A model generated the notes under the pieces. The model made no database searches and was not told where the DNA came from. It saw only the letters and a list, made by a program, of their open reading frames with translations. The position numbers were made by a program, and so were the translations under genes. Below, piece after piece: positions 9,300 to 51,215 of a stretch of DNA of 64,000 bases (the stretch's first letter is position 1; each line of letters begins with the position of its first letter). The stretch comes from Octopus sinensis (taxonomy: Eukaryota), in assembly GCF_006345805.1 (NCBI RefSeq), contig NC_043000.1, positions 87,606,001 through 87,670,000 of the forward strand, read 5' to 3'.

Positions 9300-10070
9300 T
9301 TACAACTGTTATTCCTATTAATGCTGTTCTTATTGTTTTTGTAGTTATTATAGTCATTTTGGGAATAATTCCTATTATCATAATAGTTTTGAACCTTTAT
9401 GTTATTCGGGTTATTTTTATTGGTTTCTGAGTAAAGGTATTTAATTTTTTGCTTATAACCTGCTTTTTCTAATGCGCTTTTGTAGAATTCTTCATACTTA
9501 TTAAAGATATCTTCGTTGGAAGAGAGGTGTGAGATTCCCTTGCTGATGCCTTGTACTAGTCCTCTTTTTATAAAGTTAGGATGGCTGCTAAGTGCATTTA
9601 TATATCTAAGGTTTGTATTGGGTTTTATGTAATCTTGTGGTTAGGTTGTAGTTAGCATCTAAGTAGTTAATAGAATTATGCTCTTTTTCTATTGTAATCG
9701 TTAAACCAAAACGTTTAAAAAAAATTATATAGTTTTTTCTTTAATAGTTCTAGTCTCTTATTTGAAATGTTCATCAGGATAAATAATACGCCGTCTCTTT
9801 AGAGGCCTCCCCTGATCTCTGGGAATTCTTCCTGTATATGTGATATTAAGTAAATGCTTACTAAGTCGGTTACCTGTACTGAATCAGGAGTTCTCATAGT
9901 GATATCGAAGTTACCCATAATTTATTATTGAAATTTATTATGCATTTCCTCGCTTCTAAGATTACCTTAATTTCATTCATTGTTAGTTCGGTATGTTTTT
10001 AGGCGAAAATAAGAGCGCTATGTAGGGTTAATTTATGAGTAGTAATCCTCTATGTCCTTTTCTTTTTCTT
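9300..10070 (-). mobile_element. Decayed PLE reverse transcriptase fragment
   Basis: Minus strand FDITMRTPDSVQVTDLVSIYLISHIQEEFPEIRGGL*RDG resembles PLE RT FDxTMGSxDxAExxxLVGxY...GLYRDDGL. Confidence 0.6.
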
Positions 10071-10485: not shown

Positions 10486-12140
10486 GTTAGTTAGTTAGTT
10501 AGTTAGTTAATTTGGCTCAAAAGCAAATAGCAAGGCCATGTAGGGGGACATGGAGTTAAGTACAGGGTGGTGTTCATGTAAAGAGTTCAGGCCACTTGAG
10601 GTCCAGGGAGGCTTTGAACAAAGCGGTCGTCGGCATCTTCACCATCTCGTCTGGCAGCTTGTTCCACGGATCCGCAACCCGGACGGAGAAAGCTCCTCTC
10701 CTTCGATTGAGATGAAATCGTCGCAGGTAAAGCTTTTCGGAATGACCCCGCAGCCGACGCTTCGGAGCAGGAGTGAAGAACAGCTCTTTCGAGAGGTTAC
10801 ACTTCCCGCTTATGATGTTGTGGGCGAGAATGAGATCACCACGGCGGCGGCGTTTTTCAAGAGAATAAAGGTCGAGCGTCCTCAGCCTTTCTTCGTAGGA
10901 CAAATTTTTGAGACCATGAACCATGCGGGTAGCCAGCCTCTGGACTCTTTCGAGATGCTGTATGTCTTTGAGGAGATAAGGAGAAGAGGCTTGAATCCCA
11001 TACTCCAATATGGGTCTCACCAGCGTGACATAGAGTGGCAGGAATATGGCTGCTGTGAGCATTCCGAATGACCGTCGAATCAAAAACAGAATTCCGCGCG
11101 CTTTGTTGGCAGCATGGACGCACTGGGCCGAAGGCGAAAAGGAGGAATCCACCAAGATACCCAGGTCCTTTACCTGATCGGTCCTCTCCAGCAGCAGACG
11201 ACCCGGCTCGAAATCAAGTTGAGTTGCAGGAGTAGAGCCGACAGGCAGATGACAGCACTTTGACACGTTCAGACACAGGTCCCAATCGTTAGACCACTTC
11301 CAAATTTGGTGGAGGCATCGACGAAGATCCTCTATACTACCGCGAGGAGCGACCAGTTTGATATCGTCGGCAAATAGAAGGGTGTGTTGCGTGAGGTCGT
11401 CGGGCAAGTCATTTATGAAGACTAAGAACAACACGGGCCCAAGCACTGAACCTTGAGGCACGCCACTGCTCGCACTGGAGACGTCGGACCGCGAACCATT
11501 AACTTGAACTTGGAAGGAGCGATCTGAGAGGAAGGCACCAACCCATCGTACAATATCCGGATGGAAACTATATGCTTGAAGCTTGACAAGTAGTAGGCGG
11601 TGGTTTACCGAGTCAAAAGCTTTGGCAAAGTCCAATAAAACGATGTCAACAGCATCACTATCATCGAGGATGCGCGTCACCAATTCTTCCATTACTAGTA
11701 AGTTGGTCAAGCATGATCTCTTCGGCACGAAGCCGTGTTGGGAATCAGTGATCGAGGCTGTGTTTAGGAGGTGGAGCATCATACTATTCTTAAGGATGGT
11801 TTCGAACATCTTGCTGATTATTGATGTAAGGGAAACCGGTCGGTAGTTAAGCGGGTCTTCGCGGCTCCCTTTCTTGAAAATTGGGCAGATTATCGCTGTT
11901 CTCCAGTCTGCAGGTATAACACCCGTCGCCAATGACATATTGAATAGTCGTGTTAAGGGCTCGCAGATGACCGGAACCAACGCTTTGATAACCCGTGGGT
12001 GTATGCCGTCAGGGCCGTGGCCCTTGTTGACATCGAGGCCTTGAATAACACGTTTGACTTCGTCCCGCGTGATGATCAATCGAAGCATTGGAGGTACCGA
12101 TCTATCAAATGGAGGGGGTTCACGACCATCATCTTGTTTG
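10486..12140 (-). mobile_element. 5'-truncated CR1-like LINE inserted in TA-rich microsatellite
   Basis: Intact RT ORF; 3' UTR hairpin CCATGT-ccccct-ACATGG; (TAAC)n tail at 10486-10510; GC-rich relative to flanks. Confidence 0.9.
10574..12088 (-). CDS. Non-LTR retrotransposon reverse transcriptase (ORF2 C-terminal 504 aa)
   Basis: GPDGIHP, NYRPVSLTS, QHGF, LDFAKAFDSV, SGVPQGSVLGP, FADD, LERVQRLATR, RRRRGDLI motifs; no stops; N-terminal endonuclease absent. Confidence 0.93.
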   Translation of the reverse strand: MLRLIITRDEVKRVIQGLDVNKGHGPDGIHPRVIKALVPVICEPLTRLFNMSLATGVIPADWRTAIICPIFKKGSREDPLNYRPVSLTSIISKMFETILKNSMMLHLLNTASITDSQHGFVPKRSCLTNLLVMEELVTRILDDSDAVDIVLLDFAKAFDSVNHRLLLVKLQAYSFHPDIVRWVGAFLSDRSFQVQVNGSRSDVSSASSGVPQGSVLGPVLFLVFINDLPDDLTQHTLLFADDIKLVAPRGSIEDLRRCLHQIWKWSNDWDLCLNVSKCCHLPVGSTPATQLDFEPGRLLLERTDQVKDLGILVDSSFSPSAQCVHAANKARGILFLIRRSFGMLTAAIFLPLYVTLVRPILEYGIQASSPYLLKDIQHLERVQRLATRMVHGLKNLSYEERLRTLDLYSLEKRRRRGDLILAHNIISGKCNLSKELFFTPAPKRRLRGHSEKLYLRRFHLNRRRGAFSVRVADPWNKLPDEMVKMPTTALFKASLDLKWPELFT

Positions 12141-12241
12141 TATATATATGTATATATATGTATATATATGTATGAATATATATGTATATATAGATGTATA
12201 TAAAGATAGATGTATGTAAATATATATATGTATATATATAT

Positions 12242-12295
<54 letters not shown>

Positions 12296-17391: not shown

Positions 17392-17600
17392 CGAACTGGC
17401 AGAAGAAATGCTTAGCGGCATTTCGTCCAACTTCGTGTTCTGAGTTCAGATTCCGCTGAGGTCGACTTTGCCATTCATCCTTTCGGAGCCAAAAAAATAA
17501 GTACCAGTTGAGCATTGGGATTGATGTAATCGACTTCCCCCTCCCTTTGCAATCGACTTGTCCCCTTGCTGGCCTTGTACCAAAATTTGAAACCAATTTT
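17392..17600 (+). mobile_element. tRNA-derived SINE, family B
   Basis: GAGTTCAGATTCC B-box; GTCGACTTTGCCATTCATCCTTTCGG...AAGTACCAG core (resembles a conserved metazoan SINE central domain). Confidence 0.8.
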
Positions 17601-19228: not shown

Positions 19229-19485
19229 TGTGTGTGTGGTGTGTGTGTGTGTGGTGTGTGTGTGTTGTGTGTGTGTGTGTGCGTGCGTGTGTGTGTGTGT
19301 GTGTTTGCGTCTGTGTTTGTCCCCCCAACTTGACAACAGATGCTGGCGTATTTACGTCTCCGTAACTTAGCGGTTCGATAGAATAAGTACTAGTCTTACA
19401 AAGAATAAGTCTTGGGATCGATTTGCTCGACTAAAGGCGGTGTTCCAGCATGGCCACAGTCAAATGACTGAAAAGAGTAAAGAGT
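18981..19485 (+). mobile_element. tRNA-derived SINE, family A
   Basis: GGAGTGGCTGTGTGG (A box), GGTTCAGTCCC (B box), central TA/TG tract, tail TGACTGAAAAGAGTAAAGAG. Confidence 0.92.
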
Positions 19486-19657
19486 ATATATATATATATT
19501 TTGTTTTTCAGTAAAAACAATTAAGATTCAAGTAAGTTCCAATGAATTCACATGAATGCGGTACTTAACTTTGATGCACTAGAAATCTATATGGTATTAA
19601 CCATAAAATAATGTGGGGTGATTATAAACAAGAAAAAAACAACAAGAATGGATTAGT

Positions 19658-19751
19658 TGTTCAGTACAATTGTTTCATACGAAGAACAGCTTTATTAAAA
19701 GCTGCAAATATTGCAGCAAATACAAGTGTCCCGTATTCATCAGCCAAAACA
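19658..19751 (-). ncRNA. Type I hammerhead ribozyme, branched stem II
   Basis: TGTTTTGG-CTGATGA-ATACG...CGTAT-GAAAC-AATT-GTA-CTGAACA. Confidence 0.75.
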
Positions 19752-20335
19752 CATATGAGTTTTCCAAACATCCTAGGGGGTGAGGCTAACTCATGAAGTA
19801 TCGAATCTGTATGTTGGTCGAAAGTAATGTTCTCTTTTATAAATCTCAGATTCCTGCAACTCTGACCTAGATTTTCTGTCACCACAGAAATAAACTATTA
19901 TTTGTAGGTTGTGTACTTACACCCCTTCCTCTCATTTGTCCCATAATGCCCTATTTGGGCGGTTTCTGCTTCACTAACTTCTTTTAGCCAATATAGTCAA
20001 TCTCTTCTTCCAACATAGTAGTTTTGTGAAATGAACAGAAGTGTGATCAGCATCTTCTCATATATCAGGAAATTACATCTACATTATTATGGATAAATTA
20101 ATCGTCTCTGAGTATGAAATATCTCCTCATATCTCCGGAAATTACACCTGCATTATTATGGATGGATTTACCTTTTCTGTGAAGCTAACAAACTTTTTTA
20201 AAAACCTTTTATAAAACTGTGCATCATTAGAGAACTTTTGAAGTCTGCTTACAATCCAACTTTGCTTTTTTAGAACTCTCTTCGATACTTCATGAGTGTA
20301 GCCTCATCCCCTAGGATGTTTGGAAAATTCATATG

Positions 20336-20436
20336 TGTTTTGGCTGATGAATACGGAATACGGGACACTTGTATTTGCTGCAATATTTGCAGCTTTTAAT
20401 AAAGCTGTTCTTCGTATGAAACAATTGTACTGAACA
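20336..20436 (+). ncRNA. Type I hammerhead ribozyme, branched stem II (second arm)
   Basis: CTGATGA at 20344, GAAAC at 20418, GTA at 20427; 7-nt GAATACG duplication. Confidence 0.75.
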
Positions 20437-20463
20437 ACTAATCCATTCTTGTTGCTTTTTTCT

Positions 20464-20506
<43 letters not shown>

Positions 20507-21324: not shown

Positions 21325-21540
21325 TCAAATTTTGGCACAAGGCCAGCAGTTTCGCTGGAGGCGGTGGTGGAGTAAGTTGATTGCATCAATCCCAGTGCAT
21401 AATTGGTACTTATTTTATCGATCTCGAAAGGATCAAAGGCAAAGTCGACCTCAGCGGAATTTTAACTCAGAACATGAAGACGGACGAAATGCCGCTAAGC
21501 ATTTTACCCAACGTACTAACGATTCTGCCAGCTCACCACC
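21325..21540 (-). mobile_element. SINE family B
   Basis: Reverse complement of the 17392 family. Confidence 0.85.
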
Positions 21541-27328: not shown

Positions 27329-28216
27329 TTTGTTTTAAATATTTTAATTAATTGTATCTTATTTTTCTAATTCTATTTTTTAATTTAAGCAAGAATATAT
27401 TTGTTAAGATATTTCGTATTTTACAAGATCATTTACGTATATTTATCAATTTATCTAATTAAATATTTTATTGTTTTTATCTTTAACCTGAAGAGTGGCT
27501 ATATTTATATTAAACTGATTTTACAATTATTATTACTATTATCATTTCTTAAATATAGCCACGAATCACGTGTCGTTATTTTACCAAATATATACGTTTT
27601 ATTTACAATTTTGCACATTACATAATCATTGTTATATGTTTTATCTTATAATTAATCTTTCTATAATATGTAATTTGTCTAAATGGTATGATTTAATTTT
27701 TCATTATTGAATTGATAAAATGTGTTTTTTTCTAATTTATATATATGAAAGAATACACATATATACACTTAAATACCGCAAATATGCCGCATGTTTTCTA
27801 TACATGGCGCATTCAGCTTGAATATTTCATATAGGTGTTGGTCATAATCTTATAGAACACTTTTGATGAATAAACATCTTGATTAGACGAATTAAGATGT
27901 GTTTTGTGAAACTGATGCGTGGTTAATAACCATTATGCAAAATAATGCAAATTGATCACAAAAGAATTAGTATATATATATATATATATATATATATAGG
28001 CATAATTAAATCTCAGAATGAGATTGAAACAGTAATCGCTCGATAATGTAAAGTATAGAAGCCATCTTATCATGGCTAACCACATTGGGGAGGGGGTGTT
28101 ACTGTAGCTTTATAGCCCCAAGAGATCTCCGTCTCAAGCTGGCTTTAGACACAATATCTGTGTCCTTGGAGTATTTGCAAAGGGAGGCCATCCCTTCCTC
28201 GCAAGCCTGAGTGATA

Positions 28217-28259
28217 CGCTCGAACTAGTTTCGGGATTGTTGTCCCTCGTCAACGGGCG
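28217..28259 (-). ncRNA. Type I hammerhead (C3U variant)
   Basis: CGCCCG-TTGACGA-GGGA caacaa TCCC-GAAAC-TA-GTTC-GAGCG; lies downstream of the PLE fragment. Confidence 0.6.
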
Positions 28260-28269
28260 GTAACCACCA

Positions 28270-29027
28270 GGTAGCGATGAAAGAGAGTGGGGTAGAAGTG
28301 GGGTATGGGAGGACGAGAATGGGGTAGAAGTGGGGTATGTGGGAGTGGGTGCAAGGGATGGGACGGTTAGAGGTAGGGTGGTGGGGTGGCAGGTGATGGG
28401 AAATGGTTGACGGGAGACGGCAGAGAGGGTGTGGGGGTAGAGAGCAGATGTACGGTCCACGGAACGTGCTCTGGCAAGGGAGGTCTGGATAGTAGTGAGG
28501 GGATATCCACGTAGGATGAAGTGGCGAGCCATGAGTTGAAACTGAGTCTCAAAGTCATGGTCGTCACTGCAGAGCGTACGTAGACGGAGGAATTGGGAAT
28601 AGGGGATGGAGAGCTTGGTGTGTTTAGAGTGTGAGTAGGAGAAGTTTAGGTATGAGTGTGAGTCTGTGTATTTGTAGTAGATGGAGGTGGTAAGAGTGAA
28701 GTGATGAATGCTGACCGAAATATCAAGAAATGAGACAGAAGTGTCAGAGAGAGTGCAGGAGAAGTGAAGGGCAGGATGGAAAAATTTGACAAAAGGAGTC
28801 TAGATGTTTGCAGGAGAGGGAGGTCACATCAATACATTCATCAATATAACGGCCGCATAGTTCGGGAGTAGGACCAGTGAAACTTGAGAATATTTGGGCC
28901 TCAACGCAGCCAACGAACAGGTTCGCATATTTGGGGCCTATTCTCGTACCCATGGCCACTCCCGAGACTTGCTGGTAAAACTTGCCAGCGAAGGAGAAGC
29001 AGTTGAGTGAGAGGACAAGTTCGGCCA
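28270..29027 (-). mobile_element. Penelope-like element RT fragment
   Basis: [38 protein letters not shown]...GRYIDECI; RLRTLCSDDHDF; MARHFILRGYP. Confidence 0.88.
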
Positions 29028-49926: not shown

Positions 49927-51215
49927 TACGAGGGGCGTTCAATAAGTAATGCCTCTGACCCACTTGCAGTTGTTTGATCTAGCTGAAAATTTACATGTGC
50001 AATTATTTATATCTCCATAGATTAAGTGGCAAATTACAGCTGTGAACTAATTGTGGTTTCTGATATACAGGTGTTTGAACTGAGTCAAGTGTGAAATGGA
50101 GCCTGTTGAGTGTCGAGCAGTGATCCGGTTTTTGTATTTGAAAGGACGCACACCACGGGAGACTTTTGATGAAATGAAAGTAACTTATGGTGATGATGCC
50201 CCATCATATGATCTTGTAAAACGCTGGCATCGTGAATTCAAACATGGTCGGAACTCTGTGGAAACAGCTCCCAGATCTGGTCGCTCCCCTTCTGCCATTG
50301 ATGAGGCATCTGTCCGTCAAGTTGAGGCTGCCATTTTGGAAGATCGACGCATAACTATTCGCCAAATAGCCCATGAGGTCAAGTTTAGTACCGGGTCTGT
50401 GGAAACTATCATTCATGACCATTTGCATATGCAAAAAGTGTCTGCCAGATGGATTCCCAGGTTGCTCACACCTTTCCAGAAGCAAGAACGCGTCGAGTGC
50501 TCGAGGATGAATTTGGAGATGTGCCAAGAAGATGAGTCAAAATTTTTCAAAAGACTGATTACACAGGATGAAACCTGGGTCCATCACTATGATCCAGAGA
50601 CCAAAGCCCAGTCAATGCAGTGGAAGCTCCGTGACTCACCTCCTCCAAAGAAGGCAAGGGTGCAGCCCTCCGCTGGCAAGGTCATGCTCACAGTCTTCTG
50701 GGACCAGGACGGAGTAGTGATGACAGATTTCCTGGCAAAGGGTACCACAATTACAGGAGCCTATTATGCTTCACTTTTGAGGAAATTAAGAGAAGCTATC
50801 AAAATCAAGAGGCGGGGCAAGATCAGCAAAGGCATCCTCCTCCTGCAGGACAACGCTCCGGTCTACAACTCGCGTGTCGCCAGATCAGAAGCACAGGCGT
50901 GGGGCTATGAACTCCTCCCCATCCCCCTACTCTCCTGACCTTGCACCCTCTGATTTTCACCTCTTCCTAGCCATGAAGTTGTTTTTGAAAGGAAAGCGTT
51001 TCCCAGATGATGCAGCCTTGATTTCTGAAGTCACGTGTGGTTGGAGGACCAAGCTGGGGTCTTCTACAAAAACGGTCTCCAGAGTTGCATCAAACGATGG
51101 GAGAAATGTGTAACTCTGAGTGGTTTCTATGTAGAAAAAGACTAATAACTGTGCCAAGTTTCGTTGTTCTACTGCTATGGGAAGTGGGTCAGGGGCATTA
51201 CTTATTGAACGCGTA
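49927..51215 (+). mobile_element. Full-length mariner (irritans/Himar1-like) transposon
   Basis: TA target duplication; TIR CGAGGGGCGTTCAATAAGTAATGCC and GGCATTACTTATTGAACGCG (5-bp terminal deletion on the right). Confidence 0.93.
50096..51145 (+). pseudogene. Mariner DD34D transposase with frameshifts near 50920 and 51035
   Basis: WIPRLL, ITQDETWVHHY, LQDNAP, YSPDLAPSDF split over ORFs 50096..50938 and 50874..51113. Confidence 0.92.

What the first reader, a model, noticed from the sequence alone, without database searches (positions are those of the whole stretch)
19628..20466. Inverted-arm mini-element with an intact hammerhead in each arm and a branched stem II
The two arms of about 180 bp are near-identical and point outward, so transcription through either strand yields a CUGAUGA...GAAAC-AAUU-GUA ribozyme. 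Stem II (AUACG/CGUAU) encloses about 50 nt with two overlapping, mutually exclusive hairpins (GCUGCAA-uau-UUGCAGC and CAGCUUU-uaau-AAAGCUG). This is far larger than the usual short loop II and could act as a switch or a protein-binding domain (inference). The right arm has a 7-nt GAATACG duplication at the stem base.
Basis: partly seen in the sequence, partly recalled or inferred. Interest (0 to 1): 0.72.

Follow-up and report, generated by a model that had tools for sequence, protein, structure and literature searches.

The report
Long-armed hammerheads, back-to-back Penelope stubs
This is two broken-off 3' ends of an abundant Penelope-like jumping gene pasted back to back, each carrying a predicted self-cutting RNA motif whose side arm is much longer than in described relatives but is the commonest form in this genome; the proposed two-hairpin switch is not conserved.

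Summary
The arms, both hammerhead cores and the 7-nt duplication are real. But this is no mini-element family. The insertion spans 19505-20466, between (TA)n tracts. It is two 5'-truncated copies (301 and 660 bp) of the non-coding 3' end of a ~4.2-kb RT+GIY-YIG Penelope-like element with Hydra-clade motifs, joined head to head. Near-full-length copies exist in the genome. Arm lengths vary from 34 to 4162 bp (35 insertions). 38 of 39 inverted insertions carry a ~120-nt tail on exactly one end, a known PLE signature, here 3-4 times longer than described. Domain II (60 nt) folds as an unbranched rod. Stem I and basal stem II covary across 30 related sequences and the apical hairpin stays paired; hairpin 2 is not conserved. 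The duplication is unique in the genome. Cores spaced 39-68 nt are the genome's majority (39,380 vs 1,679 control). The two ribozymes lie on opposite strands and would be locked in a duplex in a read-through RNA. This scan noted long-armed Hydra hammerheads and one-ended tails before on other DNA. Verdict: new variant of a known kind, moderate interest.

The parts
19485..19504 (.). Left target: (TA)n tract plus 6 extra bases, at the 3' end of a SINE-like repeat (SINE label recalled, not tested)
   Evidence: (L001)
19505..19627 (-). 123-nt tail: the sequence that follows the pLTR in tandem copies and lies about 60 nt upstream of the ORF start; marks the downstream (long) 3' end
   Evidence: L236; L074, L063
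19628..19805 (-). Left copy: last ~179 nt of the PLE unit (3' UTR/pLTR), 5'-truncated
19660..19748 (-). Left hammerhead motif: core 19743-19737, 60-nt rod domain II 19736-19677, palindromic stem III, predicted cut after 19665
19806..19806 (.). Head-to-head junction, one base found in neither copy
   Evidence: L001
19807..20466 (+). Right copy: last 660 bp of the PLE unit, wholly 3' UTR/pLTR (96% to L061, starting about 600 bp after that copy's ORF ends); ends at the upstream (short) 3' end, 37 nt after the predicted cut
20052..20179 (+). 59-nt imperfect direct repeat (81%) inside the 3' UTR, shared by other copies
20339..20434 (+). Right hammerhead motif: stem I 20339-20343/20430-20434, core 20344-20350, domain II 20351-20417 (67 nt), GAAAC-AAUU-GUA 20418-20429, predicted cut after 20429
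20349..20362 (+). 7-nt tandem duplication, unique in the genome
20377..20393 (+). Apical hairpin (hairpin 1), conserved in pairing and sequence across families
20390..20407 (+).
20467..20504 (.). Right target (TA)n tract

Best explanation
The locus is a non-coding, head-to-head pair of 5'-truncated copies of a ~4.2-kb Penelope-like retrotransposon with Hydra-clade motifs, sitting in a (TA)n tract and likely made in one event in which both nicked target strands primed reverse transcription at two fixed RNA sites about 123 nt apart. SHOWN: the parent unit (pLTR with hammerhead, tail, ORF of ~920+ aa with RT and C-terminal GIY-YIG, ~1.2-kb 3' UTR, pLTR), variable truncation, two discrete 3' ends, one-long/one-short asymmetry, and (TA)n targets. 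INFERRED: the endonuclease nicks both strands of (TA)n; each 3'-OH primes at one of the two sites, probably helped by the UAUA that follows both sites in the RNA; the two prematurely ended cDNAs are then joined by end joining. The hammerhead belongs to the parent. Its core, stem I and basal stem II are selected in active lineages (covariation shown). It is predicted to cut only as a dimer through the palindromic stem III and/or with help from the element's protein (inferred, about 0.6). Domain II is an unbranched ~60-nt rod with a sequence-conserved apical hairpin, most likely a recognition handle for the element's protein or a tertiary-contact partner (inferred, about 0.35). It is not a two-state switch. 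This genomic copy itself is probably inert.
For: Parent: L061, L074, L063, L065, L069, L236, L238 and L239 carry RT (GLYRDD) and EN frames upstream of the same 3' UTR. L239 has a 922-codon open frame with RWK, DKT, CxCx5C, YLG, CxxC and CxH, and its 3' UTR matches the window at 81-89%. L236 has direct pLTRs 4,200 nt apart, with pLTR-tail-ATG in order. By eye P0001 follows the visible N-terminal ~400 aa of Hydra-1_Obim in File S4 of PMC8557442. Ends: 47 of 82 arms stop 33-42 nt after the cut and 35 of 82 carry the tail. 38 of 39 inverted pairs have one of each (p about 2e-11 if independent). Arms span 34-4162 nt; junctions show 17 overlaps, 3 blunt joins and 15 insertions in 35 pairs. In print: inverted 5'-truncated copies with a tail on one end (PMC8557442 Fig. 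2 legend; PMC3846280 passages); both-strand cleavage and extension, two internal RT starts and a protein-assisted HHR (PMC11167929); opposite-strand min-HHR pairs 100-700 bp apart (PMC4209133). Structure: 81.5% of cells paired, 84 two-sided changes vs 39 shuffled, 38-49% when slid; stem I 88%, basal stem II 78%, apical 89%; stem III pair 86-89 has 10 two-sided changes. Identity between two divergent groups is 0.74 in the apical core vs 0.36-0.46 in the stems.
Against: No catalysis, RNA or protein binding was tested. The monomer hammerhead-competent fold is rare (p about 2e-5; stem III was left unpaired there, so a dimer gain of up to -8.4 kcal/mol is not counted). This subfamily has A-U rather than the usual G10.1-C11.1. 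RNAalifold on alignment A1 recovered only 3 apical pairs. The middle of the rod is only 67% paired in the MAFFT register. Core invariance in A1 is built in by the search pattern. Within the subfamily the core mutates as fast as the rest (1.10% vs 1.15%), so inserted copies show no selection. PMC11167929 found HHR cleavage dispensable for insertion in vitro and no RNA-seq ends at the cut site. Pfam and PDB did not recognise the RT/EN, so its identity rests on motifs and the by-eye comparison. No fully intact copy was seen among the 40 large stretches fetched. The unit (4.2-4.6 kb) is longer than described Hydra elements (<3 kb). PAc starts RT without homology to the target, unlike the UAUA-assisted priming proposed here.
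Confidence: 0.88

Rival explanations
1. A non-autonomous mini-element (MITE-like or retrozyme-like) with terminal inverted arms that transposes as a unit.
For: Near-identical outward arms, no ORF, more than 1,000 first-look candidates in the genome.
Against: The interior is the parent's 3' UTR and continues upstream into the ORF in other copies. No two of 35 pairs share both breakpoints. The two ends differ by the tail.
Confidence: 0.04
2. Domain II is a two-state switch between two overlapping hairpins that gates cleavage.
For: Both hairpins are perfect 7-bp stems in 57-62 of 68 close copies. Hairpin 2's covariation score exceeds most shuffles (1/500), which relatedness alone can produce.
Against: Hairpin 2 is about 3.7 kcal/mol less favourable in the left arm and 2.7 in the right. 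It is 63.5% paired, equal to the slid control. Its G is the most often changed position in the subfamily (9 of 68). Both states leave the basal stem II intact, so neither would gate the core.
Confidence: 0.04
3. The inverted pair arises by self-priming or fold-back on an antisense or cDNA template rather than double priming (the model discussed in PMC3846280).
For: Some junctions are palindromic or show overlaps (17 of 35, up to 18 nt).
Against: The window's junction has a 1-base insertion and no palindrome. Fold-back alone does not explain why exactly one end carries the tail in 38 of 39 pairs.
Confidence: 0.12
4. The long domain II is a tolerated neutral expansion whose only constraint is to stay a closed hairpin.
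For: Lengths run continuously from 8 to 98 nt in this genome with unrelated sequences. From general knowledge, hammerhead stem II tolerates insertions.
Against: The apical hairpin keeps its sequence (0.74 identity) while the stems diverge (0.36-0.46) between two groups of families. That comparison covers one clade only.
Confidence: 0.4

Closest known systems
Hydra clade of Penelope-like elements, incl. Hydra-1_Obim and Penelope-13_HM (PMC8557442; read: abstract, passages, section 11, supplement parts 1, 2 and 7 and a search listing)
   Same: RT then C-terminal GIY-YIG; RWK, DKT, CxCx5C, CxxC/CxH motifs; (TA)n targets; type I hammerhead with near-palindromic stem III at the 3' end; Penelope-13_HM is listed with an inverted 5'-truncated copy and a hammerhead on each strand.
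   Different: Unit 4.2-4.6 kb with Asn-rich inserts and ~1.2-kb 3' UTR vs <3 kb; domain II 60 nt vs 10-24 nt (loops 3-10 nt in all 26 Hydra rows of File S2); tail ~123 nt vs 30-40; a different family from Hydra-1_Obim (709 aa).
Minimal and palindromic-stem-III PLE hammerheads (PMC4209133; read: parts 1-2 of 4)
   Same: Core, short stem I, palindromic stem III implying dimers; opposite-strand pairs 100-700 bp apart described in Schistosoma.
   Different: Helix II there is 6-8 bp; here a ~60-nt rod; A-U instead of G10.1-C11.1 in this subfamily.
PAc (Poseidon, Anolis) (PMC11167929; read: parts 1-2 of 4)
   Same: Two internal RT start sites that define the tail, both target strands cut and extended, AT-rich target, protein-assisted hammerhead.
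   Different: Other clade; the tail there is short and inside the ORF, with RT start said to be non-homologous to the target; here the tail is 123 nt, upstream of the ORF, and both ends precede UAUA.
PLE-X1 hammerheads of Selaginella and Naiad 'HHR_half_core' cases (PMC8557442 File S2, Methods)
   Same: Long spacing between core halves (loops of 29-35 nt; halves 35-50 nt apart, including cephalopod Naiads).
   Different: Flagged there as non-canonical or half cores, in other clades, without covariation analysis; here a full core with covarying stems in tens of thousands of copies.
Adineta vaga Penelope elements (PMC3846280; passages)
   Same: Head-to-head inverted pLTRs, tail on one inverted pLTR, Asn-rich inserts in the ORF.
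   Different: Penelope clade; 31-bp tail; self-priming model favoured.

Membership tests
Penelope-like elements (EN+) | Single ORF with RT and GIY-YIG endonuclease in the parent | tested here: met
   922-codon frame in L239 with GLYRDD and a YLG-type motif. By motif and by-eye comparison with File S4; Pfam and PDB gave no RT hit.
Penelope-like elements (EN+) | pLTRs from partial tandems, 5' truncation, inverted upstream copy, tail at one end | tested here: met
   L236 direct pLTRs 4,200 nt apart; 38 of 39 inverted pairs with one tail.
Hydra clade | C-terminal EN; RWK motif; DKG changed to DKT | tested here: met
   P0001, motif tags.
Hydra clade | CxCx5C linker; no CCHH; CxxC and CxH near the EN end | tested here: met
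   CxCx5C, CxxC and CxH are seen in P0001; absence of CCHH judged by eye.
Hydra clade | Insertion into (TA)n | tested here: met
   Flanks printed; most ends run into TA repeats.
Hydra clade | Generally <3 kb (descriptive, not diagnostic) | tested here: not met
   Unit 4,200-4,250 nt, sister family about 4,600; filed as a long variant.
Hydra clade | RT phylogeny within the clade; no IFD | not tested
   The paper's sequences could be read but not loaded into a tree.
Type I hammerhead ribozyme | Core C3-A9, G12-A15.1, U16.1-H17 | tested here: met
   Both arms; 60 of 68 homology-found arms.
Type I hammerhead ribozyme | Stems I and II with covariation | tested here: met
   5 of 5 and 5 of 7 pairs with two-sided changes.
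Type I hammerhead ribozyme | Stem III closed in the monomer | tested here: not met
   Only a 2-nt loop is possible; the palindrome allows an intermolecular duplex (-8.4 kcal/mol). This is the usual state of metazoan dimer-type HHRs per PMC4209133.
Type I hammerhead ribozyme | Match to Rfam hammerhead models | tested here: not met
   None among 46 matches at E<=10; the long domain II is the likely cause.
Type I hammerhead ribozyme | Site-specific self-cleavage | not testable with these tools
   Needs an in vitro assay.
MITE-like or retrozyme mini-element | Fixed short unit copied as a whole | tested here: not met
   All 35 junction pairs differ; the unit contains an ORF.

The most novel reading that the evidence does not exclude
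Octopus-type Hydra PLEs carry a class of hammerheads, tens of thousands strong and invisible to standard models, whose stem II has grown into a ~60-nt rod with a sequence-conserved apical hairpin that docks the element's own RT-endonuclease. The docking licenses cleavage and positions reverse transcription at two UAUA-adjacent sites 123 nt apart, one per nicked (TA)n strand. That would give PLE hammerheads a defined job in the insertion cycle and explain the one-tail rule.
Probability: 0.2. Interest if true: 0.72.

Novelty: new variant of a known kind. Interest (0 to 1): 0.36.

Why it matters
The role of hammerheads in PLEs and the origin of their inverted, one-tailed insertions are open questions (PMC8557442 says so). 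This family gives a clean test set: two 3' ends 123 nt apart that are easy to score, a 38-of-39 asymmetry, near-intact ORFs, and an enlarged domain II with a conserved tip. It also shows that descriptors limited to short stem II miss most hammerhead-like motifs in this genome (about 52,000 matches spaced 39-98 nt vs 19,727 spaced 8-38). The locus itself is an ordinary, probably dead insertion.

Tried and rejected
Rfam scan: no hammerhead hit. Pfam on six ORF pieces and PDB phmmer: nothing relevant. Naiad clade considered because of the CxC-type motif and rejected, since the EN is C-terminal and RWK/DKT are present. RNAalifold on A1 gave only 3 pairs, so named structures were counted instead. 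One of 31 clusters (L121) was left out of A1 as not alignable. Four of the 39 pairs (L071, L116, L207, L239; sister or diverged copies) were left out of the junction analysis. Sequencing runs: no RNA holder listed; contigs laid cannot show ends, strand or expression and could not confirm or exclude the duplication. The search of earlier findings by sequence returned nothing. Literature searches listed no paper on long-stem-II hammerheads in cephalopod PLEs; bioRxiv 10.64898/2026.07.22.740005 (term search only) has no 'octopus', 'stem II' or 'helix II'. Subscription papers and Repbase were not searchable, and that preprint's supplement was not seen. No structure or complex prediction was run.

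Full report
Observation. The window holds two inverted arms, 19628-19805 (minus) and 20281-20466 (plus). They are 94.1% alike over 186 columns, with three substitutions, a 1-nt indel and a 7-nt tandem duplication in the right arm. Each has an intact hammerhead core with a palindromic stem III; predicted cuts are after 20429 (+) and 19665 (-). Rfam did not detect them. The genome is 2.7 Gb and likely an octopod's: the named homologues of the parent protein come from Argonauta hians and Octopus sinensis.

What it is. Genome searches gave 1,268 first-look candidates for the arm and 1,053 for the interior, 40 scored each. [quoted passage not shown] Of 40 large stretches fetched, several are near full length. 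L236 has direct pLTRs 4,200 nt apart, in the order hammerhead, pLTR end, tail, ATG. L239 has a 922-codon open frame. The protein shows RWK, DKT, CxCx5C, CxxC and CxH, the diagnostics that PMC8557442 section 11 gives for the Hydra clade, and by eye it follows the visible part of Hydra-1_Obim. Pfam and PDB did not recognise it and no tree was made. The window's insertion is therefore 19505-20466: a 301-bp minus copy (179 nt of the unit end plus a 123-nt tail), one extra base at 19806, and a 660-bp plus copy. Both lie in the non-coding 3' end, between (TA)n tracts. The arm length is simply where the shorter copy was truncated.

How it formed. Of 82 subfamily arms, 47 stop 33-42 nt past the predicted cut and 35 carry the tail. 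Of 39 distinct inverted insertions in the fetched loci, 38 have one end of each kind and one has two short ends (p about 2e-11 under independence). These loci were picked by arm or motif searches and are not a census. In 35 of the 39 (four sister or diverged ones left out), arms run from 34 to 4162 nt and no two share both breakpoints; 17 junctions overlap, 3 are blunt and 15 have insertions. A fixed mini-element is thus excluded. The layout is in print: an inverted 5'-truncated copy with a 30-40-bp tail at one end (PMC8557442 Fig. 2 legend; PMC3846280), opposite-strand hammerhead pairs (PMC4209133), and two internal RT starts with both strands cut and extended (PMC11167929). I infer double priming: each nicked (TA)n strand primes at one of two sites, both followed by UAUA in the tandem RNA (seen in L236), and the two truncated cDNAs are then joined. 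The tail here is 3-4 times longer than described.

The hammerhead. Long spacing is not special to this locus. Core halves spaced 8-38 nt match 19,727 times (control 1,529), 39-68 nt 39,380 times (1,679) and 69-98 nt 12,636 times (1,268). All 26 Hydra rows in File S2 have loops of 3-10 nt; longer ones appear only in two flagged Selaginella motifs and in Naiad 'half cores'. I aligned 30 of 31 clusters of related motifs. A rod model is 81.5% paired with 84 two-sided changes (39 shuffled; 38-49% paired when slid): stem I 88%, basal stem II 78%, middle 67%, apical hairpin 89%. The core is invariant there by construction of the pattern. RNAalifold alone recovered only three apical pairs. Domain II folds as a single hairpin in 27 of 30 sequences. 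The apical hairpin keeps its sequence (0.74 identity between two divergent groups, vs 0.36-0.46 in the stems), which hints at specific recognition. The duplication occurs once in the genome and leaves the rod intact.

Activity at this locus. As a monomer the competent fold is rare (p about 2e-5), and stem III can form only between molecules. This fits the dimer-type or protein-assisted PLE hammerheads in print. The two cores are on opposite strands, so they cannot dimerise in cis, and a read-through RNA would pair the arms into a ~175-bp duplex. In 68 homology-found arms the core is intact in 60 and mutates at the same rate as the rest. Inserted copies therefore decay neutrally, and selection acts only in the active lineage.

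Earlier notes of this scan. Searches returned unreviewed notes on long-armed Hydra hammerheads and on one-ended tails and double priming, in this and other genomes. They are not independent support. The long-arm note prompted me to treat the trait as genome-wide; the asymmetry was measured.

Verdict. Real, well explained, and a new variant of a known kind. Confidence 0.88 in the architecture; about 0.6 that the motif cleaves as a dimer or with protein help; about 0.35 that the apical hairpin is a protein handle. Interest 0.36.

Noticed in passing
G000 genome-wide: About 72,000 hammerhead-core pattern matches vs about 4,500 control; many unrelated families, including tandem arrays with ~400-600-nt periods (e.g. 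C1:4297863-4299124, C1:18221705-18225984) that look retrozyme-like.
   Followed up: partly
L239:940-3705; L065; L061: The parent ORF has two long Asn-rich inserts (after the RT and before the EN), as described for Adineta Penelope elements (PMC3846280).
   Followed up: no
P0030: An annotated Octopus sinensis ankyrin-repeat protein contains a piece 70% identical to 21% of the parent protein: a gene-model artefact or an exonised PLE fragment.
   Followed up: no
window 9383-10025 (-): Decayed fragment of another related PLE RT (45-53% identity to P0001).
   Followed up: no
window 28137-28799 (-); 10577-12247 (-); 50084-50935 (+): Frames resembling a Penelope/Poseidon-type RT thumb, a LINE RT and a mariner transposase (labels recalled, not tested).
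   Followed up: no
window 17406-17544 / 21366-21504: 139-nt inverted pair, 84% complementary, probably two SINE-like copies in opposite orientation.
   Followed up: no
L236 and tandem copies L074, L063: Both fixed 3' ends are followed by TATA in the element, suggesting microhomology-assisted priming by the (TA)n target.
   Followed up: partly
L241-L254: A sister family (about 83% identical, unit ~4.6 kb) has more full pLTR-ORF-pLTR copies than the window's subfamily.
   Followed up: partly
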